The translations under genes were made by a program, and so were the position numbers. Positions 18,731 through 49,804 of a DNA stretch of 64,000 nt are shown here, piece by piece. The stretch is taken from the NCBI GenBank assembly GCA_017654855.1, contig CM030335.1, forward strand, positions 496,001 to 560,000, in the 5' to 3' direction. Below the pieces are notes generated by a model, which was not told the DNA's origin, did not search any database, and worked only from the letters and a program-made list of their open reading frames with translations. The DNA is from Podospora anserina. Taxonomy: Eukaryota. Each line of letters opens with the position of its first letter. Position 1 is the first letter of the stretch.

Positions 18731-20801
18731 CTAGAACCTCCACCATTTCAGCGTACGATCCTCGAGACTGTCTACCAGAGGCCCAATAGGACAAGACTCG
18801 AGAAAGCTCTTATACTTGTGCGCCGTGTCGATCCACTCGTATCTATTGATCTTATCCCTGGCGTCAAAGACGCGGTACCTCTTTCCTGGTTGGCGGCAGA
18901 CGAATAGATTGTGCAATGCCCAACCGTTTCGACCGTGAGCGAAATCCCCGAATGCCACAACTTCCAGAGAAGAGATGCCCCGTGGTCCGAATATCCAATC
19001 TAGATGCCTAGCGAAAGAAGGCAGGACCATTTTTCAAGTTCGTCAGGGGGCACGACAGCCAAGTATTTGTCAAACCTAAACGTGGAGCGAATCCTAGAGC
19101 TGGAACCGATACCTGATGTCTTTTGGGGATATTCAAGTGCCCGTGATCCTCTAGCTTTGAGGTGGGACCCAGTTTGCCTAAAATGCAAGATTTTGAGAGT
19201 GGACTTCAAGGCGAAAGGGCCCAGTATCTCTTTCTGCATAGATGATGAAAAATGTTAGATCAGAGGTAATCAACGACAGGAATTACTAGCAGTCTACTCA
19301 CTAATGACTCAAAATGCTCGTTTGTATCATACGGAAAGCCGAGACACTCAAGATCAAGCAGTGACATGGGATGGAAAGTAGGAGAGATCTTCCACCTGTC
19401 TCTCTCTGACTCTGGGATGTCAAAATGACAGCCATCATGAACTGGGTCGGCCCTTCTTGAGCGATAACCTGGCCCTGGGCGATCTCCGCGTTGGTGCACG
19501 ACCAGTTTTTTCAAGGTGGCATGATGGTGGGCAATAGCATCCCATAAAGGAATCATTGTTGATGGATCAGGCCTAGTTGGGGATGGAAGACTGCACGGTA
19601 TGACGGCCTTGGTGAACCCGAGAAACAGCTCTTTCAATCCTCGGAAAGATGACAGAAACCGGATGATTTGTTCTTCTTGGTTTTCTTCATCATCGTCCTC
19701 GTGTGATTGAATTTCGAACTGCTCAAGACACAATGGAGTTGTTGTGGCCACGGATCATTCTAGAAGTCGTTCCCACAAGTGGCAATTGCGTATCGTAACA
19801 GTCTTTACCGTCGTGATATCAATGGCCTCTTTCATCTGTCCGCCAAGGGAGACATTGTTTAGTGATAGGACCGTTAACACTGGGAACAGAGGTCGTGTCT
19901 CTGGAAGGACCCGACTGAAAGGTGTCAAAGTGGTATCAGGCCAATCCCACGGCGTGTCAAGGTTGCCATGATCAGGGTCGACATCCATGTCATCCTCCGT
20001 GACACAGGGGTATGCCAATGTGACGTCCAGCTCGGTGAGATGCTCTCGGTTCCTCTTCAGACACTCTCCCAATGAGCCAAGCAAGACATTGGGGGGCTGG
20101 TGCCAGCTGATGTGGGTCAGATGACGAAAAGCTATTGGGATTTCTTTGTGTGAATCCAAGCACCCCCCATCTGTGATGAGCCGGAGAGACCTCAGTTGGG
20201 GTTGCCTAGCATGTAGGGTATCCAGAACACTGCTGGAGATACATGTAGCAAGGTCCCAGCTGAAGCCATCTAATTGACCGGCAGGGATGCGCTCAAGGAC
20301 AGAGTCCGCCATTTGACAAAGACGAGAAAGATCATCAACTGGCAGTGGGTCTCTTCCAACAAGAGCTCCGTCAATCACCCCCTTTTTTTGTCCAGTCGAG
20401 TCTGCTCCGTCATGAGGTTGGACGTGCAAGCAAGGCACATTGGGTATCTTTTCGGGTTCCACTTCATTTGCTTCCTCTCCAATCTCTTCTTCAGGTTTTG
20501 TGTCCACATGCAATGCTTGCCACGCTGACCATCGCAAATCCCGACTAAAGGTGAGGTGTTTGGCGTTGCGCAACGCGGGAGTGGCACTTTGGAGAGCCGA
20601 TGCGCACTGAGCAACGCGGTCGATGTCCAAGATGCATCGCTTACGCTTAACGCGAGGTATATCGATGCGGATCGATTTCCAGAGTTTCGGTGCACATACT
20701 GAGTGGAACAACTTAGACACACTGGACAACGATTTGATGTCTTCCAATAAGAGGCATCTAATTATGTCATGCAGAAGTTCCACGGGGAGGTGGCCGAGCA
20801 T
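18731..20801 (-). pseudogene. F-box domain protein, disrupted (in-frame TGA plus frameshift)
   Basis: N-terminal F-box LGHLPVELLHDIIRCL...LSSVSKLF; TGA at 19755-19757 with in-frame continuation; intron ~19301-19234; one-base frameshift in the A5 run at 19030-19034 before VLPSFARHLDWIFGPRGISSLEVVAFGDF. Confidence 0.75.
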
Positions 20802-39946: not shown

Positions 39947-41494
39947 TTAATAGTTGCAGATACCTCCAACATCATCGTCAATAGTCCAAGTACCTGCCAA
40001 ACCAGGCATCTCCACCTCCTCAGTGACAGTATGAGACATCAGCAACCCAGCCCCCTCCTCGGGTTTTCCAGCAAAGAAGTCGTTCTGACCCGGGCCTTTG
40101 TGCACTCTGCTCATGAACCGCTTGGTCCATTCCTCAATAGCAGGTTCACCCGTCTCATCCCTGGCCTGCTTGAGGAAAGAGATGAGTGCTGTGCCGCCAG
40201 TTCCCTTGAGAGCACTCTTCTTCCCGTCATCAGCAGCTTTTTGAGCAGTGGCAGCAGCACCACGGGCATCGTAAGCAATCCCCTGAGGCTGCTGGCGAGA
40301 AGCAGTAGCGAGGTTGACCTTGCGACGGGCGACCTCGGGACTCCGACTGCGGCTCCGGGCGCGAACTTCCCGGCTGGGCAGGACAATATACCGCGTGACA
40401 ATAGCAATGTGCTTGTCGCGGAGAGCGCGCAACATGGACAAACAGGCGTCGTAGGCAACTGAGAGAGGTTTGTTGTCCTTGTTCTGCTCGACATATTCGC
40501 GAATGTTGGCAACACCTTGAACATCCTGGAGGAATCTAGCATGGGGTCCGGGCATATACTGACGCATCTCCATGATGAAGTTGTGCTTGGGCGCAGGGGC
40601 GTGACCTTCACGTCCGCGCTCCTTGGTCGGCTTCTCACCAGTGGGGCGATGGGTGATGCCCAAGACGATGTCGAAGAATTGGATCAGACTGCTCTGGGCA
40701 TTGCTGCCACCGGCATATTGGCGGTAGGTCTCGGTTCCAGTTCCGTCCTCGTAGATAACGCCGTTGGGCAAACCGGCTTCGCCCATGTTCTTGCTGCCGG
40801 CCAAAAAGGGACGGATGCGGTTGTAAAAGATGTTGGGGTCGCAGCTCTCATGCATGCGGACCAACAGGGTGGTCAGATCATCCAGACGCTCAGCAAACGT
40901 GCTCAGGCAGCTGGTGACGGCCTTTGCATCGTCCTCCCGGGCAGCAGCGATAGCCCTCAGCATCAGGGGGACGATGGGTGCACCACGGGCTTCCATGGCG
41001 ACAGAGACAAGGTAAAACCAGGACTCGTCGATGCCACCGGTGAAAGTGCACAAGCTGGCGAGGTTCTCGAGATTGTCGATATCCTCGTCCATGAAAAGGG
41101 GCTTGAAGTTCCAGAGACAGACAGCTGCGTAGGTGGCAACGGGCGGCACCTCGAGGTGTTCAGACACCTTCAACAGCGGGACTGAAATGGAAGGCGGCAG
41201 ACGGTCACTGGGACTATCACCGCCCCAGATGTAGCCGTGGGCCATAAAGGAGAGCAGCACGTAGGCTCTGCGCCATTCTGCGTCGTGTTCCAGACCGATG
41301 GTGGAGAGCACTGGGAGCCGGTCGATGACCCCGCGCAGCCGCTTGCTGAGAATGAGGGCCTGCAGGTTCGCCGCGATGGCCTCCCATTTGTTGTAGTAGG
41401 GATCCGGAAGCCTCGTCAACGGCAGGACGTCCGGGAGGAAGCCGTGGGTTGGAGAGATTCCATAGTTGGCCAGGTCCGGGATGGGCGCCAACAT
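39947..41494 (-). CDS. BNA2: Indoleamine 2,3-dioxygenase
   Basis: HGFLP, AHGYIWG, PPVATYAAVCLWN, GGSNAQSSLIQFFD, MRQYMPGPH, RDKHIAIVTRYI, GTGGT; intronless. Confidence 0.96.
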   Translation of the reverse strand: MLAPIPDLANYGISPTHGFLPDVLPLTRLPDPYYNKWEAIAANLQALILSKRLRGVIDRLPVLSTIGLEHDAEWRRAYVLLSFMAHGYIWGGDSPSDRLPPSISVPLLKVSEHLEVPPVATYAAVCLWNFKPLFMDEDIDNLENLASLCTFTGGIDESWFYLVSVAMEARGAPIVPLMLRAIAAAREDDAKAVTSCLSTFAERLDDLTTLLVRMHESCDPNIFYNRIRPFLAGSKNMGEAGLPNGVIYEDGTGTETYRQYAGGSNAQSSLIQFFDIVLGITHRPTGEKPTKERGREGHAPAPKHNFIMEMRQYMPGPHARFLQDVQGVANIREYVEQNKDNKPLSVAYDACLSMLRALRDKHIAIVTRYIVLPSREVRARSRSRSPEVARRKVNLATASRQQPQGIAYDARGAAATAQKAADDGKKSALKGTGGTALISFLKQARDETGEPAIEEWTKRFMSRVHKGPGQNDFFAGKPEEGAGLLMSHTVTEEVEMPGLAGTWTIDDDVGGICNY

Positions 41495-42539: not shown

Positions 42540-44400
42540 ATGGCAGTCCAGCAGCATGTCCTGAACTGGCTGTACAGTGTCTTGACAAGTGTATGTTCCA
42601 ATTGCTACCTCGATATCGCGATAGAGCCATACTAACTGCTACCCCTCTCCGCCAACAGGAATATCGGGATGTCAACCGTGCCTACAGCGATGTTGCCCAG
42701 GCCCTCGCGCAATATCCCTCCCTCTCCCCGAGGACCGATGTCCACAGTATGCTCATGCTGCCTCGATGAATGATTGCGCGCGCATGGCCAGCTCACTGAC
42801 GATGCGCTGCGACAGCCTTCCCCAACGGTTCATCAGCTCTCCTCCTTCGCCTGACTGGCACCATCCCCGTCCTGTTTCGCCGCACAACATATCGATTCCC
42901 GATATCACTATGGGTTCCCCATGCCTACCCGCAGGAAGCGCCCCTGGTCTACGTGACCCCGACCGAGAATATGATGGTGCGCCCCGGCCAGCATGTTGAT
43001 CCGCAGGGACAGGTCTACCATCCATATCTCGCGGGCTGGGCTGGGTTTTGGGACGTATGTGCTCTTCCGGACGATACTATGGGGTTATCTGGGACTCGAA
43101 GCTGATTATCCCGTTGCAGAAGTCTAGCATTCTCGACTTTCTCGCCATTCTGCGAGATGTCTTTGCCAAAGAGCCGCCAGTAGTGGCTCGACAGCCAGGG
43201 GGACCGCCGCCTCCACCAGCTCAGCAATTGCAACCGGCATCACCACCTCCTGTTCCTCCCCTCCCGCCTGATCTCGCCGCCAGGCCATCAAGTCAGGCTC
43301 AACACCACAGCCCGGAAAATGCGCCGAGACCACCACCTCCTCCACCAAAACCCGGCATGCAAGTCGACCCACGACAACCTCCTGTCCAAGGGTCACCTCG
43401 AGCCGGTCCCCCAGTACCTCCACTACCACCAAAACCAGGACGTCCTATAAGCCAGTATGCCGGTGAAGATCCAAGACTGCACCATGAGCAACAAGCGAGA
43501 CCGGGTCCATCACGATACGACACAGCACCCCCATTACCACCCCAAGCGCCCCGGTCTCCTCCGGTACCACCACGTCCCTTCCACCCTCCAGTCCAGCAAC
43601 AACCACCACCACCACCAGGCCCCCAATACCAACGTTCTCCCCCTCCACCAAGCAACTACTCCCCGGGACCCCCTCAACCCCCTTACCTCCCCAACGACAC
43701 TCGCCGCTCCCTCCCTCCACAACAACAATTCACCCCCGTCCACCAACAACAATGGCAACAACCCCAAGCTCAACCTCCCATCCAACAACCCCCACCACCC
43801 CAACCCAACCCCCCCGTCCCAGACATCATGGACTCGGAAGACCTAACTCTTTCCATTCCACCCACCACAACCTCGGCGCCACCCATCCCCCCAAACCCTG
43901 AAAAAGACGCGATCCTCCGCCAGCTCGCCTCAACACTGTTTACACTACGGCAGCAGGCCCGTGACCAGAACAGCTCCTCCCTTGCAGGTCTGCAATCGCA
44001 GCGGCAAGCCATGGCGGCAGCAAGCCAAAGAATGCAAGCTGAGTCGGCGCAACTGACTCAGCTTTCGAACCTCCTGACGTCCAACACGTCCATCTTGCAG
44101 GACTCGCTCAGAAAGGCAGACGCAGTGATTGAGAGCTCGTCTCGTCTTCCAGAGCCGAATATTGACGAGCTTTTGGTGGCTCCGACAGTGGTGGGGAACC
44201 AGCTTTACGATCTTGTCGCCGAAGAGAGGGCGTTGGCGGATGCGATTTTTGTGCTTGGGAGGGCGGTGGAGCGGGGACGGATCGCGCCGCAGACATTTGC
44301 GAGGTTGACGAGGAGTTTGGCGCGGGAGTGGTATCTCAAGAAGGCGCTGGTGAAAAAGATTGGGGTTGGGATGGGGTTGAGTACCGGTGTTGGGTACTGA
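42540..44400 (+). CDS. VPS23: ESCRT-I subunit Vps23/TSG101
   Basis: Multi-exon UEV domain (YPSLSPRTDV, GTIPV, PHAYPQEAP, HVDPQGQVYHPYL), Pro-rich linker, coiled coil, steadiness box (QLYDLVAEERALAD...RSLAREWY). Confidence 0.93.
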
Positions 44401-44617
44401 ACTGTCGCAAGATAAATGGAAAAAAAAACAGGCAGTTGATAAGAAGAGAAGCGTTCATCTATTATTTATCTAATGCTACTTGGTACTTTCCAGCACAAGG
44501 CCGACTATCGGTTGTCTTGTGTGTCCTATCTTTCGTCTTAAACATGTCTTAACAATGATCCAAGATGTGTCTAATCCTCCCCAAGAGTTCTCTTCTCTCC
44601 TCAAACAAAAAAAAAAG

Positions 44618-47600
44618 CTACAGCTTGGGCCAACCCATGGTTCTCTCTCCCTGTCCTTGCCCCAAAACAACCCTCTTACCACCATCCTCTCCAGCCTCTC
44701 CACCACCACCCCTAGTCTCCTCCTCCTCCCACCTCCTCCAATCAACAACCCTCGACGGCCTAGGATGCTGCAACCTACAATTCGGCGTAGCAACAACAAC
44801 ATCCCAATCCTCTTCCCTATTCCCTCCTCCTCCTCCCCCAACCACACTCCCCTCCCGACTACTCCTCTCCTGCATCATCTTTCTCGGACTGATTAAATTC
44901 CCCCCTCCCGCCTGATGCCTAGCAGCACTCGAACTAGCCCTCCGTTCCCTCAACCGTCTCCCGATCCCCAATGCCGCCGCCGCCGCCCTCTTCCCCCAGC
45001 TCAAACTGGAACGTCTGCTCCCCCCTCCCTGCTTCACCGCGTGCACCAGATCTGGACTCAAGACCGGGCCCACACCGCCAGCTTTATTCCTCCACGCTTC
45101 ACCCCCCTTTTTGCCCAAGGAGGAGTGGTATAAACTCTGCTGAAGATGCTTCTTTGTAACAGCTACAGGACGCTGTACCTCTGCTGTTTCATGGCCGGGC
45201 GTGACATTGCCAGGGGAGTAATGACTAGCCGTGGGACTAACGCTAATGATTGAGGTGGTAGTAGCTTGGTGAATAACAACACCACCCTTCAAAACAGGCG
45301 GTGAATCGCGGTGGTGGTGAAAGCAATTGCCATCACCTGTGACTGGGATTATATCCCTCGTCCTGGATAAAAAGGCCTTGTCCAAGAATGGATCAGAAAC
45401 CGCCATGGTGGGGGCAGTCGTGCTCGTCTCCCAACTGTGTTTCGTCTCGAGGGTGCCATAGCTCTTCCTGTCGGGAAGGATGCGGCCATCTCTTGCGCTG
45501 GTGGGGTGGAAAAGCGTCGGCTTGGTGGTGGCAGTCTTGTTGACGAGTTCGGCGGAAGAAGGCGGTTCATAGCTAGGTTGTGGTGCTGGCTTGGAAGAGA
45601 TGGGCTCTTGTTGTTTCCCCGCCGGCGCAGGATTCGTCCGCGGAACCCTCCACATGGTCCCCTTGACAAAAAAGCTCGAGTCACGCCTAGGAGTGAGAGA
45701 CAGCCCGTCTGGCTTTGCAGTGGTGGTGGTATTCGCGCGCAAGACTCTGCTGCCCAGAGGCTTGCCGGCGGTGCTCTGCTGGACAACCCCGACGCTGTGT
45801 CTTGTTGTGATGGTCACCTTCGTCGTACCCTCAGCGGTCTTCATCCCAGCCGCCGCCGGCTTGCTCTCCCTCCGTCCCGTCAACGACAATGCTCTCAGCG
45901 CCCTTGCTCCTCGTCTCAACTCAGACATCGAAGGCCGTCTCACCGAATTGCGAGACTTCACCAGCTTGTTCGACGATGACCCTCTGCTCTTCTGAGACCC
46001 CGAGGTCGAGCTCACCGTTCTCGGACGACTAAGGTGTTCAAACAAGCCGATCCTATCCTTGACAGGAGACTCCTTGGTAGCAGTACCTTCCCCAGCACCA
46101 TCTTGGGACAAGTTTCCATACCCTCTCGACGACTTGCGAAGTGCCTCCTCCACTTTGGCCGGAAAAGGGGTCGTAGACCTTCGGGAGAAGGAGGAAGAAG
46201 AAGCAGTAGTGCTGCTCGAGTCGCGGTGTGTCCTGACAGCAACTGTGGTGGAGACCATGATGGGAAGACTGGGTCCGGATTTGACAGGAGCGGTCTCCCG
46301 TCTGGTTCTCCAGTGTTGTAAAAAAGGCGACGGTGGTGGTCCTGGTAGTATCCTCCGTCCGACACCGCTGTCACTGAGGCGGGCCACCGCCTTTTCCTTT
46401 GACTGCTTGGTGGGACTTTCGTTGGGAGGAGGCTTGACGGTGGAGATTTTGACAGAGAGTGTTCGTGCTTGGAGCAGCGGTCTCGATGGGGTGCTTCCCA
46501 ATTTGCCCCCGTGTTCAAAGGCTTCAGCGAGGGCTCGAGTGCGTCTTCTGTTGATGGGCTCGCTGGCTGGCGCTTCCGTGTGGTCACTGTTGCGTGCCCT
46601 CGGCGGTGTTTCGGAGCTCGGGTCCTTGCGTTTGTTTGCCTGACCTGGCTGGGCTTGGTAGATTCGTTCTGAAATCGCTTTCTTGTTTGGACTGGCAGAC
46701 TCGCTCTTGGGATGCTTTGACACGGACGACTTGGCTGACGACCCAGCCAACACAGCTTGCTCAAAGGCCATGCGCAAATCCGCCACGCTGTGTCTGTTTC
46801 TCTTGACGGTATTTTCCACCTCTCGTCCTACCTCGATGGATGACTGGCTCTGTTGCTTGCCTCTGACTGTCGAGACACTGCCGCCTGCCTTGGGATCCAT
46901 CTCGCTCGTCCTCGACGCTCTGAGGCTTGCAACAGCTTTGGCGTGCTCGACAAAGACCGGCTTGGAAGAACTCACTGCTGCACGAGTGATGATGGGCAAG
47001 GTAAAAGGGTCACCACCTCCTTGTTCAAACATCTTTCGTCTCTCGGCAACAAGCTTGGGGTCCCAACCCTTCCTCTCTTCGGGCACAACGCCACTGTCTC
47101 GCTTCTGTTCATCATGCTGCCGCTTTAGCTGGAACAGCGTGGAAGGTACCTAATCTTCCGTGTTCCCTGACTTTTGCTGATGGCGGATTATGAAGGGACT
47201 GGCTTCCAGGCGGGAAACCTTCTTGATCGGCGAGCTCGACTGCGGGTACATTGGCAGGCCGTCAGAACCGTGAAGCTTGGGTCCAGCAGCTGGCGTCGGT
47301 GTTCTTGGAGATATTGCTTCCCTTTCTGGTCTCTCTGCTTCGGAAAATGGGATGGCAATACGGGGGGGTTTGGTGAAAGGCGAGCCCTCGGTAAAGATGG
47401 GTCGAGGCTCGGTTCGCGGTCGTGCTCGGTTTTGCTTCTGGGTGTTCAGGGCAGTCGCTGCCGCTGGTTTCAACGGCGACGGGCCGTGGCGAGTCTCTTG
47501 TGCAATGACTTTGCTTACTGCGTCGGCAATCTCAAACTTGGACACCAGGCTGGCCAGGCCGGGCGCTGTGCTTCGAGCCGGGGGTGTTAGTTCCAGGAAG

Positions 47601-47845
47601 GCCATGCCCTCCATCCCGCGGTGCACATTCGGGCGGCGGGTTGCAAGGGTGGGTGTCTCGTGGGCGTGGACGCTCTTCGCGGGCGAGGTAAAGGAGCTTT
47701 GAGTGCTGATGCTACTGTCGCCATAACTTTTGCGTGGGAGTCGGAGGGGCTCTGGTTTGAGTTTGGAATCGGAGTAGTCTCGCTTGGTGCTTCTTGTTGG
47801 GAGGCCTGTATCGTTGAGCGTCAGTGTCGGGATTTGGGTGGCCAT
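44618..47845 (-). CDS. Large basic, Ser/Thr/Pro-rich hypothetical protein (1075 aa) split by one in-frame TAG
   Basis: ORFs 47150-47845 and 44618-47086 are in the same frame, separated only by TAG (47150-47152) and 21 sense codons; recurring short motifs (LVSKFE, RRKMFE, LRMAFE, LAEAFE, RIGLFE) occur on both sides of the stop. Confidence 0.75.
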
Positions 47846-48085
47846 TTCGGTTTCAGTCGCAGTTTTTGTGGCAAAGGGTCCAGTGTAGGAGTAACGAAGA
47901 TGCGGGCAGAGATGGATGACTGAGGCTGGTTTTGCTTCTGTGATGGAGTTAATCCGAGCGCCCAGGTGGTTGAGGATGGAAGGACCAGTTTCCAGGATAC
48001 GCGATCACGTTCGGGTCCCAGCAGCTGGGCATCGCTCCTTCCATCTAATATCAGGTAACGTCACTTCTATCTTTCCTGGTCCCGC

Positions 48086-49201
48086 TCAGAAAGACACCAT
48101 TGGTAACCTCTTCGCGGCAAAATACGCCCAGTAAAACACAGCATTGTCCCGCGATGGCGTTCCCACCAAATCCTCAGCCAGCGCAGCCAACACCCAGTCA
48201 GTGTAAAAGGCAAACAGAACGCTCAACATGAACACAGCAACTCCTGTCGCTGCCAGACAACCGACTCCCACAATCCCCACGCATCCTCCACTTCCGCTCA
48301 TCATCAGCCATGACAGGACAATCGCCACCAGGACCATCAGGAGCACAACACCCCCAAACACCCCAGTAATGATCCTCAACTGCTGGTTCCCCATGATATG
48401 CTTCGACACGATATTCATGATGCCCACAAACCCGACGACGACCCCAAGCACATACAACGGGACCCAATACCACACCCGATGATACCTCCCCTTCAGCCCT
48501 GGCAAATGATACCCATGCCATTCGTCGTCATCACCATCGTCCTCCCGCTGAGTCAATCTAACCCTACTCCCCGTTCCCATCGGCACTTTGAGAGGGTAGT
48601 AATGCCCCAAATGCACATCCGCCGCCGAAGTCCTCGGTCCAGGACGGTCATCCGTTGGTGTCCTCTGATACGTCGATTCGGGATAGTCATAGCCGTACCC
48701 ACCATCCCCATACGCAAAGTACCCTTGCTCCTCCTCCACAACCTTTGGCTGCTTTTCTTTCTTGGGCTCATCATGTGTCTCCAATGCCGCCTGGATGGTC
48801 ATGCCCGTTAATGTGACCGACAACACCAGCTTCCATACTGCGACCAAGATAAACGGCCATGTGCGTCGACATCTCGCCACGGTTAGTGATGTCAAGACAA
48901 GCGTAATGACAAACCCAATGGCAGCAACAGAGAGGTTGAACCGTCGATGTTTGAGCCGTTTCCAGACGAGAATTGGGTTTCTACCGCGGGAGAGCATATA
49001 CGCAGTGAAGTAGGTGAGAATGTGGCTGGCCATTCCGATGGCGCCGTAGGGGAGTGCGTAGCATTGGATTTGCTCCTGGACGGTGCCGCCGTCCTCGTAG
49101 GGGTCTTTGGAGAGCCATTCGCTCAGGCTAAACGCTTGACATGGGCGAATGAGCAGGGCTGTAGAGAAGAGGAAAAGATTTCGTATTGGTACTCTTGACA
49201 T
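48086..49201 (-). CDS. Hypothetical multi-pass membrane protein
   Basis: Signal-like N-terminus, QIQCYALPYGAIG..SHILTY, several TM segments, C-terminal FYTDWVL...YWAYFAAKRLP. Confidence 0.8.
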   Translation of the reverse strand: MSRVPIRNLFLFSTALLIRPCQAFSLSEWLSKDPYEDGGTVQEQIQCYALPYGAIGMASHILTYFTAYMLSRGRNPILVWKRLKHRRFNLSVAAIGFVITLVLTSLTVARCRRTWPFILVAVWKLVLSVTLTGMTIQAALETHDEPKKEKQPKVVEEEQGYFAYGDGGYGYDYPESTYQRTPTDDRPGPRTSAADVHLGHYYPLKVPMGTGSRVRLTQREDDGDDDEWHGYHLPGLKGRYHRVWYWVPLYVLGVVVGFVGIMNIVSKHIMGNQQLRIITGVFGGVVLLMVLVAIVLSWLMMSGSGGCVGIVGVGCLAATGVAVFMLSVLFAFYTDWVLAALAEDLVGTPSRDNAVFYWAYFAAKRLPMVSF

Positions 49202-49804
49202 TTTTTTTGGTATTTTCTAGAATGAAGCATGATGGCGCGACGCATCCAAAGTTGGGGATGGTGTTGTTTTAACCAACACAGCTCCCGTCCAGCTGGAGAT
49301 GGCTGCCTCTTGGTATTGGTCTTGGGATAGCCGGCCTGCATGATGGCGCCAGGGGCTCAAGAGAGAACCTCACAATGTGGTACCAGAGGTTTCCCTTGAA
49401 GGTGGGTGATGTTCAAAATGCGGCCAGAATTGCCAGGCATTTTGCCCAATTTGACTTGAGCTGCATGCCTCATTATGCAGATCGACTTTGCAGTTCTTAT
49501 ACACCTACGATCTCACCCATTCGCACAGAATCAAGGCCGTCTTCAAAGATCTCGCAAGGCTCTGTGCAACCCAACAATGCATGTCTCCCAGAGTGCACCC
49601 AGCGCATGCATAGCCGAAGCCACAGAAGTCGTGGTGTGCTTCATTGGCGCCAATGGTAGTCAACCCACGCTAAACACCCGGAGCAAATGCGGCACAGCCC
49701 CCTGTGATGGAGCAAGCGTTGATGGTTTGGAGGGCCAAGCCTCTATTGAAGTTTCACCGACTTATCAACTCTTCATTTGTGCTTCTCATTCACCGACGTT
49801 GATA

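What the first reader, a model, noticed from the sequence alone, without database searches (positions are those of the whole stretch)
47131..47166. Premature UAG displayed in an anticodon-arm-like hairpin: candidate gene switched on by A-to-I editing
Seen: a 1075-codon minus-strand frame (47845-44618) is broken only by TAG at 47150-47152, and short xxxFE motifs recur on both sides. The mRNA there reads GGAACA-C-GGAAG-AUUAGGUAC-CUUCC-ACGC-UGUUCC: 6-bp and 5-bp stems with the stop in the terminal loop. Taking A.C as the closing mismatch, the loop is 7 nt (UUAGGUA) with the stop's A third and preceded by U, like U33-A34 of an AGG anticodon. Established: Fusarium, Neurospora and Sordaria perform sexual-stage A-to-I mRNA editing, attributed in Fusarium to the tRNA deaminase Tad2/Tad3 plus cofactor Ame1. 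It prefers U at -1 and hairpin loops and corrects UAG to UGG in some apparent pseudogenes. Inference: this uncharacterised gene makes a 231-aa form vegetatively and a 1075-aa Trp-corrected form in fruiting bodies.
Basis: partly seen in the sequence, partly recalled or inferred. Interest (0 to 1): 0.82.

Follow-up and report, generated by a model that had tools for sequence, protein, structure and literature searches.

The report
Conserved in-frame TAG splitting a fungal gene
A Podospora gene of unknown function carries one in-frame TAG stop that many related fungi keep at the same codon, so it is probably recoded, most likely by the sexual-stage A-to-I RNA editing known in related fungi, though no RNA evidence was available.

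Summary
The minus-strand frame 47845-44618 has 1075 codons and one stop, TAG at 47150-47152. That TAG sits in the loop of a predicted hairpin.

The organism belongs to the Podospora anserina species complex. Public annotation starts this gene at Met272, downstream of the TAG.

The new result is comparative:
- The 231-codon upstream ORF ends at exactly the same residue (..ED*) in Cercophora samala, Triangularia verruculosa and two unnamed relatives.
- 22 of 40 family representatives end there.
- Two distant metagenome lineages have TAG at the aligned site.
- Other lineages carry sense codons there: W, Q, K, L or C.
- A conserved motif, GWDPxxVAERRKxFE, lies between the TAG and the next AUG.
- The frame is kept across the TAG, and no canonical intron spans it.
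- Contigs of four runs, guessed to be RNA, cross the TAG unspliced and unedited.

Together these point to an ancient recoded stop rather than a pseudogene. The most likely mechanism is restorative UAG-to-UGG A-to-I editing (about 0.62). It could not be tested directly, because no sexual-stage reads were available. The hairpin is no more stable than chance, and the anticodon-like 7-nt loop is not conserved. I class it as a new member of a known kind.

The parts
47153..47845 (-). Upstream ORF, codons 1-231 (MATQIPTLTLND...SGNTED): the conserved N-terminal domain of the family. It is not in the public annotation of this organism.
   Evidence: 97, 81, 73 and 51% identity to P0023-P0026, all ending at the same column; 142 of 195 aligned residues identical to A. 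backusii P0003.
47150..47152 (-). In-frame TAG (codon 232), context GAU-UAG-GUA. The candidate edited A is at 47151 (a T on the + strand).
   Evidence: TAG lies at the aligned site in L004:386-388 and L006:6631-6633. L007 has the same 81 nt as L006.
47131..47166 (-). Predicted hairpin GGAACA-C-GGAAG-[AUUAGGUAC]-CUUCC-ACGC-UGUUCC, with the UAG in the loop.
   Evidence: MFE -12.4 and -10.3 kcal/mol; z -0.79 and -0.87; the loop placement is common in shuffles.
47033..47149 (-). Codons 233-271 between the TAG and the annotated start Met272. The stretch is open, in the same frame, and contains no AUG.
   Evidence: 25 of 34 aligned residues identical to A. backusii.
47024..47068 (-). Conserved motif GWDPKLVAERRKMFE. 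Its first 12 residues lie upstream of the annotated Met272.
   Evidence: The same motif occurs downstream of the stop site in L004, L006, L001, P0003, P0007, P0010 and P0013. The Met is I or V in all of these.
44621..47032 (-). The publicly annotated 804-aa CDS (Met272-Leu1075). The stop codon is at 44618-44620.
   Evidence: the translation equals P0019, an 804-aa cluster member whose names are withheld because the window encodes it.

Best explanation
The gene is a single 1075-codon gene of an orphan, largely disordered protein family of Sordariales. It carries an ancient premature UAG at codon 232.

In vegetative cells, translation would stop there and give only the 231-aa N-terminal piece. 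During fruiting-body development, the Tad2/Tad3-type mRNA editing activity of Sordariomycetes would deaminate the middle A (window 47151). The codon would then read as UGG (Trp) and the full 1075-aa protein would be made. The annotated 804-aa model starting at Met272 is an annotation artefact of the stop.

Shown here: the conserved stop position, TAG in all three lineages with DNA, coding conservation on both sides, no AUG before the conserved downstream motif, and no canonical intron.

Inferred: that the recoding mechanism is A-to-I editing, and that it is specific to the sexual stage.
For: 1. Same stop position in relatives. N-terminal ORFs of C. samala (P0024), T. verruculosa (P0025) and two Logan relatives (P0023, P0026; 51-97% identity) all end at ..ED, as in the window. 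P0024 and P0004 share a longest-contig length of 115238, as do P0025 and P0006 (47870) and P0026 and P0012 (15418). This suggests the two halves lie on one contig.

2. Wide spread. An HMM search with the N-terminal alignment gave 40 representatives. 31 are 330 aa or shorter; of these 19 end in D, 12 in ED and 22 in D/N/H/Y. They include Podospora didyma and Trichocladium antarcticum.

3. Codon identity. TAG followed by G occurs in all 3 independent DNA lineages that have the stop: window, L004, and L006/L007. TAA would need two edits. TAG has survived to 25-31% protein identity.

4. Sense codons elsewhere at the site. W in P0045, Q in N. tetrasperma P0041 and in P0048, L in P0053, and K (AAG) in L001/L002 are all one step from TAG. 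PMC10776026 describes this pattern for PSC sites.

5. Translation must cross the TAG. The conserved GWDPxxVAERRKxFE motif lies after the TAG with no in-frame AUG in between in the window, L004 and L006. The frame is kept although the spacer is 27, 36 and 37 codons.

6. Equal conservation on both sides. Identity to A. backusii is 73% for residues 1-231, 74% for 233-271 and 67% for 272-1075.

7. Editing context. U at -1, G at +1, and a predicted hairpin loop in all three lineages match the stated preferences.

8. No splicing. No joint appears in contigs of 4 runs from 4 studies that cross the TAG. No in-frame intron with a consensus 5' site and branch site exists in any of the three lineages.
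Against: There is no direct RNA evidence. Contigs of X1, X3, X4 and X12 all cover 47151 and show the genomic base, and no T>C change occurs anywhere in the gene. Their tissue is unknown, their RNA nature is only a guess, and contigs drop minor variants.

The hairpin is no more stable than shuffles. Loop placement of the A is common by chance, and at 61 nt the L006 fold does not place it in a hairpin loop.

Position +3 is U, C and C, whereas editing favours A/G there.

Only 1 of about 9 sense-codon lineages has Trp. Q and K are also what near-cognate readthrough of UAG would insert (recalled, not from a call).

In the papers I read, A-to-I mRNA editing is not demonstrated for Podospora. The preprint 10.1101/2024.12.09.627484 only cites other fungi.

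Stop-codon identity is unknown for the 20-odd lineages known only as proteins.
Confidence: 0.62

Rival explanations
1. Programmed translational readthrough. The UAG is decoded at some frequency by a near-cognate tRNA, giving a short and a long isoform without any RNA change.
For: The conserved in-frame stop, with coding conservation on both sides and no AUG before the downstream motif, fits readthrough as well as it fits editing. Sense replacements include Q (P0041, P0048) and K (L001), which are the residues recalled to be inserted at UAG.
Against: The context is UAG-G-Y in all three lineages. It is not the UAG-CAR-YYA or UGA-CUAG type motifs, and +4 G is recalled as a strong termination context. 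The stop sits inside the hairpin loop rather than upstream of a stimulatory structure. UAG readthrough genes are, from recall, rare in filamentous fungi, whereas 71 UAG PSC-editing genes are described in one Fusarium species.
Confidence: 0.12
2. Two separate products. The locus is a genuinely split gene: a 231-aa protein, plus a downstream protein made from Met272 (as annotated), from a non-AUG codon, or from an internal transcript.
For: Public annotations model it this way in five named Podospora species and this organism (804 aa) and in C. samala and T. verruculosa (two models each). Both parts are conserved.
Against: Met272 is I or V in A. backusii, Cladorrhinum, P. australis, Immersiella, L001, L004 and L006. 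The conserved GWDP..ERRK residues lie upstream of Met272, and no AUG lies between the TAG and that motif in the three DNA lineages. The reading frame is the same across the stop in all three despite spacer length changes. Reinitiation after a 231-codon ORF is inefficient in eukaryotes (established knowledge, recalled).
Confidence: 0.1
3. Stage-specific splicing. An in-frame intron whose 3' end is the UAG|G (for example the 69-nt GTTTCC...TAG) removes the stop in some tissue.
For: YUAG|G resembles a 3' splice site in all three lineages. NCBI models of A. backusii (P0003), Cladorrhinum (P0007) and P. australis (P0010) skip this stretch. A 69-nt in-frame GT..AG exists in the window.
Against: The 69-nt candidate has a non-consensus 5' site (GTTTCC) and no CTRAY branch. 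L004 has no in-frame GT..TAG candidate at all within 35-400 nt, and L006 has none with a consensus 5' site. The 'intron' encodes conserved residues (KKVSRLEASPFIIRHQQKSGNTED against KKLSRLEASPFIIRHQQKSGTTED). No joint appears in 4 of 4 laid runs (contigs, RNA guessed).
Confidence: 0.05
4. Recent nonsense mutation or assembly error. The N-terminal part is a decaying relic and only the 804-aa product matters.
For: The annotation uses only the downstream part.
Against: The stop lies at the same codon in lineages down to 25-51% identity. The upstream ORF is intact and 73% identical to A. backusii. Six DNA-sized runs from 3 studies hold 100% of the sampled words of the stretch, and four further runs carry the TAG in contigs.
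Confidence: 0.03

Closest known systems
PSC ('premature stop codon corrected') pseudogenes restored by sexual-stage A-to-I editing in Sordariomycetes: 71 in Fusarium graminearum, e.g. PUK1, FgAMA1, PSC64, PSC69 (passages of PMC10776026 and PMC11156358)
   Same: An in-frame TAG within an otherwise intact, conserved coding frame. The TAG is retained across species and lost to sense codons in some lineages, and those sense codons are one step from TAG and not always Trp. U at -1 and G at +1. Predicted hairpin loop. Many such proteins are disordered or of unknown function. The host is a perithecial Sordariomycete.
   Different: Editing is not demonstrated here. The gene family is different: it is restricted to Sordariales-type sequences in my searches and has no Pfam domain. 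The stop appears to be spread across several families (Podosporaceae, Chaetomiaceae, P. didyma). Position +3 is a pyrimidine.
Stop-loss A-to-I editing of normal stop codons (Sordaria macrospora efd genes, recalled; F. graminearum DBF2, PMC13123824, search listing only)
   Same: UAG read as UGG after editing, extending the protein during sexual development.
   Different: Those sites are the natural terminators, and the extension is short or destabilising. Here the stop lies at codon 232 of 1075, and the conserved bulk of the protein follows it.
tRNA A34 deamination by Tad2/Tad3 in the anticodon loop (review passages)
   Same: A U-A-G-G tetranucleotide in a loop, like U33-A34-G35-G36. A 7-nt reading Y-U-A-G-G-Y-R can be drawn in all three lineages.
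   Different: Predicted loops are 9, 8 and 5 nt. The 5-bp stem with 7-nt loop register needs a mismatch in the window and in L004, and fails in L006 (my reading of the sequences). No tRNA-like element was detected.
Programmed stop-codon readthrough (recalled: fungal peroxisomal isoforms through UGA-CU contexts)
   Same: One gene gives a short and a long product across a conserved in-frame stop.
   Different: The stop is UAG with +4 G. No known readthrough motif is present, and the extension is the main body of the protein.

Membership tests
Fungal restorative (PSC) A-to-I mRNA editing site | In-frame UAG interrupting an otherwise intact, conserved coding frame | tested here: met
Fungal restorative (PSC) A-to-I mRNA editing site | A-to-G difference between sexual-stage RNA and genomic DNA at the stop's A | not testable with these tools
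   One search lists no holder on record as RNA; 4 of 4 laid runs (contigs, RNA guessed, tissue unknown) show the genomic base at 47151. No raw sexual-stage reads were available.
Fungal restorative (PSC) A-to-I mRNA editing site | Stop kept as TAG in related species, or replaced by a sense codon, with downstream coding conservation | tested here: met
   TAG in 3 of 3 stop-bearing DNA lineages. 22 of 40 representatives end at the site. Sense residues W, Q, K, L and C occur elsewhere. Codon identity is unknown for the protein-only lineages.
Fungal restorative (PSC) A-to-I mRNA editing site | Sequence preference: U at -1; A/G at +1 and +3 | tested here: inconclusive
   -1 U and +1 G are inherent to UAG. 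+3 is U (window), C (L004) and C (L006), which is not the preferred purine.
Fungal restorative (PSC) A-to-I mRNA editing site | Edited A in a hairpin loop | tested here: inconclusive
   The A is in a loop in the MFE folds of all three lineages at 41 and 81 nt. However, 23-56% of shuffles do the same, L006 fails at 61 nt, and z-scores are -0.8 to -1.5.
Fungal restorative (PSC) A-to-I mRNA editing site | Host has the sexual-stage editing machinery (short Tad2/Tad3 isoforms, Ame1) | not tested
   Only the literature statements that the system arose in the ancestor of Sordariomycetes and that ADAT-like genes are regulated in P. anserina sexual development. No genome was held for the window.
Anticodon-arm mimic (5-bp stem, 7-nt loop, U33-A34) | Conserved 7-nt loop with the A third, closed by a 5-bp stem | tested here: not met
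   Predicted loops are 9, 8 and 5 nt, with the A at loop positions 4, 4 and 2. ARAGORN and Rfam find nothing.
Stop-containing in-frame intron | Canonical 5' site, branch site and 3' site, with spliced transcripts | tested here: not met
   no consensus candidate shared by the lineages; no joints in 4 of 4 runs (contigs only).
Programmed readthrough site | Known leaky context (UGA-CUAG or UAG-CARYYA) or a downstream stimulatory structure | tested here: not met
   The context is UAG-GUA-CCU, UAG-GCA-UCC and UAG-GCG-UCU. The motifs themselves are recalled.

The most novel reading that the evidence does not exclude
The TAG is a Sordariales-wide developmental switch, older than the split of Podosporaceae and Chaetomiaceae. 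It turns one gene into two proteins. The 231-aa N-terminal domain protein would have its own vegetative role, unlike the Fusarium PSC genes whose truncated forms appeared functionless. The 1075-aa form would be made only where the editing enzyme is active, with the conserved Y-U-A-G-G-Y-R apex acting as a minimal tRNA(AGG)-like recognition element.
Probability: 0.15. Interest if true: 0.7.

Novelty: new member of a known kind. Interest (0 to 1): 0.5.

Why it matters
If editing is confirmed, this would be a deeply conserved restorative-editing target in Podospora anserina. P. anserina is a genetic model in which A-to-I mRNA editing is not described in the papers I could search.

It also corrects gene models. 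The gene is annotated as truncated (804 aa) in this organism and in five named Podospora species. It is split into two models in C. samala and T. verruculosa, and it is bridged by a doubtful intron in A. backusii, Cladorrhinum and P. australis.

The pattern of retention and loss (TAG in many lineages, Q in Neurospora, C in Chaetomium) gives a natural comparison for testing whether premature stops corrected by editing are favoured over sense codons. That question is still debated (PMC10776026 and PMC13431901: passages read; PMC13684035: search listing only).

Tried and rejected
- RNA evidence. The look-up of sequencing runs listed no holder on record as RNA. Read laying failed once and then worked. 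The four runs are Logan contigs, so they cannot show minor edited or spliced forms, and their tissue is unknown. A stretch without cover (about 44776-44973) occurs in all four runs and proves nothing.
- Edited fused proteins. A search for proteins carrying W at the site, as edited transcripts assembled from public runs would give, found none. One search covered 591-1882 aa and one search covered 210-669 aa. One search returned 4 hits, and all were unfused N-terminal ORFs.
- Function.
No whole genome is held for the window, so the editing machinery genes were not sought.
- Known RNAs. A tRNA or known RNA family at the hairpin was rejected: 0 ARAGORN genes and 0 Rfam matches at E<=1 over 44000-48500.
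- Intron. The 69-nt GTTTCC...TAG intron and a 369-nt GTAAGC...TAG candidate were rejected. The second would delete 123 conserved codons.
- Literature. 'Pa_4_1360' (my inferred locus name, from the QC76x_401360 tags) occurs in 0 papers. Supplementary tables of the Fusarium and Neurospora editing papers were closed and may list relatives.
- Site assignment. Site residues in fused proteins (P0013, P0039, P0041, P0044, P0048, P0053, P0056) were assigned by eye to the [ST]-E-[DN] motif. They do not come from a tested alignment. P0040 and P0059 could not be placed with confidence. P0062 is a low-complexity hit and was ignored.
Full report
**1. What is in the sequence**

On the minus strand, 47845-44618 translates as 1075 codons with one internal stop, TAG at 47150-47152. 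Stop-to-stop ORFs of 284 and 843 aa abut at that codon.

The RNA around it is GGAACA-C-GGAAG-AUUAGGUAC-CUUCC-ACGC-UGUUCC. The MFE fold forms both stems and leaves the UAG in a 9-nt loop. This fold is ordinary: z = -0.79 and -0.87, and 38 of 200 shuffles fold at least as well. With the UAG fixed and the flanks shuffled, the A lands in a hairpin loop in 251 of 500 shuffles (41 nt), 165 of 500 (61 nt) and 116 of 500 (81 nt).

Five FE motifs occur (residues 104, 273, 361, 443, 602) against 1.35 expected; 18 of 2000 shuffles reach five.

No tRNA gene or Rfam family lies in 44000-48500. Pfam finds nothing in the read-through protein.

**2. Whose gene it is**

The read-through protein found 12 homologues, all from Podosporaceae or Lasiosphaeriaceae-type fungi. 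The 90% cluster of the best hit holds 804-aa proteins of five named species: Podospora pseudopauciseta, P. pseudocomata, P. comata, P. pseudoanserina and P. bellae-mahoneyi (locus tags QC76x_401360). It also holds an 804-aa member with names withheld. That member is exactly the window's ORF from Met272 (P0019).

So the window is from the P. anserina species complex, and public annotation starts the gene 40 codons downstream of the TAG. The name Pa_4_1360 is my inference from the tag numbering; it occurs in no searchable paper.

**3. The stop is conserved, not accidental**

- *Same end point in relatives.* Searching with the 231-aa upstream ORF found four proteins of 223-291 aa: C. samala P0024, T. 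verruculosa P0025, and Logan P0023 and P0026. In the alignment, all five sequences end in the same column with ..ED, at 97, 81, 73 and 51% identity.
- *Both halves probably on one contig.* Three of them (P0024, P0025, P0026) share a longest-contig length with a downstream-half protein (115238, 47870, 15418). This suggests the two halves lie on one contig.
- *Family-wide count.* A profile search of 1.84 billion representatives gave 40 hits. 31 are 330 aa or shorter; of these 19 end in D, 12 in ED and 22 in D/N/H/Y. Two of these are named: Podospora didyma and Trichocladium antarcticum.
- *Exceptions.* Four short hits run through the site with a sense residue and carry the downstream motif: P0045 (W), P0048 (Q), P0053 (L) and P0056 (M). 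Five others end elsewhere. One long hit, P0062, is low-complexity noise.

**4. DNA from distant relatives**

A metagenome scan gave 7 loci.

- L004 has an in-frame TAG at 386-388. tblastn places it exactly on residue 232.
- L006 has TAG at 6631-6633 at the equivalent place. L007 is identical over 81 nt.
- L001 and L002, which are like the Immersiella protein P0013, have AAG (Lys) there and an open frame.

All three stop-bearing DNA lineages therefore have TAG followed by G, at 25-31% protein identity to the window. A neutral stop would be expected to have drifted to TAA or TGA over that distance (inference).

Fused proteins without the stop carry one of these residues at the site, assigned by eye:
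- Q in N. tetrasperma P0041;
- C in Chaetomium olivicolor P0044 and in P0039;
- A or Q in P0013.

**5. Translation has to cross the stop**

The motif GWDPxxVAERRKxFE (window 47024-47068) follows the stop site in every lineage. In the window, L004 and L006 there is no in-frame AUG between the TAG and this motif. In L004 and L006 the first Met comes only about 100 or more codons later.

Met272 of the annotation is I or V in A. backusii, Cladorrhinum, P. australis, Immersiella, L001, L004 and L006. The frame is the same on both sides, although the spacer is 27, 36 and 37 codons.

Identity to A. backusii is 142/195 for residues 1-231, 25/34 for 233-271 and 529/786 for 272-1075. These facts argue against a pseudogene and against two AUG-initiated genes.

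**6. Splicing**

The NCBI models of A. backusii, Cladorrhinum sp. and P. australis skip the stretch around the site. That stretch encodes conserved residues in relatives that keep it. P0027, a Cladorrhinum-like short form, ends in ..AED, which suggests the skip is a device of the gene predictor.

Enumerating in-frame GT..TAG introns gave the following:
- Window: the 69-nt candidate has 5' site GTTTCC and no CTRAY branch. A 369-nt one would delete conserved codons.
- L004: none.
- L006: none with a consensus 5' site.

Contigs of four runs from four studies cross the TAG colinearly, with no joint anywhere in 45031-48800 and no change at 47151. These runs are only guessed to be RNA. The guess rests on 20-28 million letters against 36-37 million for the DNA-sized runs, and on uneven depth between neighbouring genes. 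Their tissue is unknown, and contigs drop minor forms.

**7. Mechanism**

What is established comes from passages of PMC10776026 and PMC11156358:
- Sordariomycetes edit mRNA A-to-I during sexual development with Tad2/Tad3 plus cofactors.
- Editing strongly prefers U at -1 and hairpin loops.
- 71 F. graminearum genes need UAG-to-UGG correction.
- Such TAGs are retained in evolution, arise repeatedly, are lost in some lineages, and often derive from non-Trp codons by one change.

The present locus shows that full comparative signature, so I take restorative editing as the best explanation (0.62). The rivals are readthrough (0.12), two products (0.10), stage-specific splicing (0.05) and a relic or error (0.03); the remainder is unassigned.

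Points against, or neutral:
- There are no edited reads.
- Position +3 is a pyrimidine in all three lineages.
- The hairpin is at chance level.
- Trp occurs in only one sense-codon lineage.

**8. The anticodon-arm idea**

A Y-U-A-G-G-Y-R heptamer is shared: UUAGGUA, UUAGGCA and CUAGGCG. However, the predicted loops are 9, 8 and 5 nt, with the A at loop positions 4, 4 and 2. A register with a 5-bp stem and 7-nt loop needs a mismatch in the window and L004, and fails in L006 (my reading). What is shared is a short purine-arm/pyrimidine-arm hairpin (GGAAG/CUUCC, GAGAA/UCCUC-type, GGAG/CUCC) with the UAG at its tip.

**9. Novelty and verdict**

The phenomenon is known. Supplements were closed.

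I class it as a new member of a known kind, with interest 0.5. The comparative evidence makes recoding of this TAG very likely, and the deciding experiment is simple.

Noticed in passing
window 44606 (about 12 nt 3' of the gene's stop codon at 44618-44620): Contigs of 3 of the 4 laid runs carry one (X4) or two (X1, X3) extra A after 44606 relative to the window. This is a homopolymer-length difference in the presumed 3' UTR.
   Followed up: no
window about 44776-44973: None of the four laid runs has a contig over this stretch, which encodes the Gly-rich ..SVVGGGGGGNREED.. part. Contig ends differ between runs and there is no joint, so it looks like an assembly or coverage drop-out rather than an intron.
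   Followed up: no
window 40460-40462, 41183-41185 (+ strand); 11813-11815, 19755-19757 (- strand): Four other pairs of adjacent same-frame ORFs of at least 150 codons each are separated by a single stop, TGA in every case. They may be in-frame introns or chance and were not examined.
   Followed up: no
window 45944 and 45194: Single-contig differences C>T (X12) and G>A (X4) on the + strand inside the gene. Neither is of the A>G type on the mRNA strand, and depth is below 6.
   Followed up: no
P0003, P0007, P0010 (A. backusii, Cladorrhinum sp. PSN259, Podospora australis): The public fused gene models omit about 35-40 residues around the stop site, probably through a predicted intron that hides an in-frame stop. 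Their DNA could not be fetched to check.
   Followed up: partly
window 43000-44400 (+) and 48086-49216 (-): The neighbouring ORFs of 466 and 376 aa are covered by the same contigs as this gene. Depth over the covered tail of the first (43800-44400) is 2-5 times that of the gene in X1, X3 and X4 and more in X12, and it converges on this gene's 3' end.
   Followed up: no
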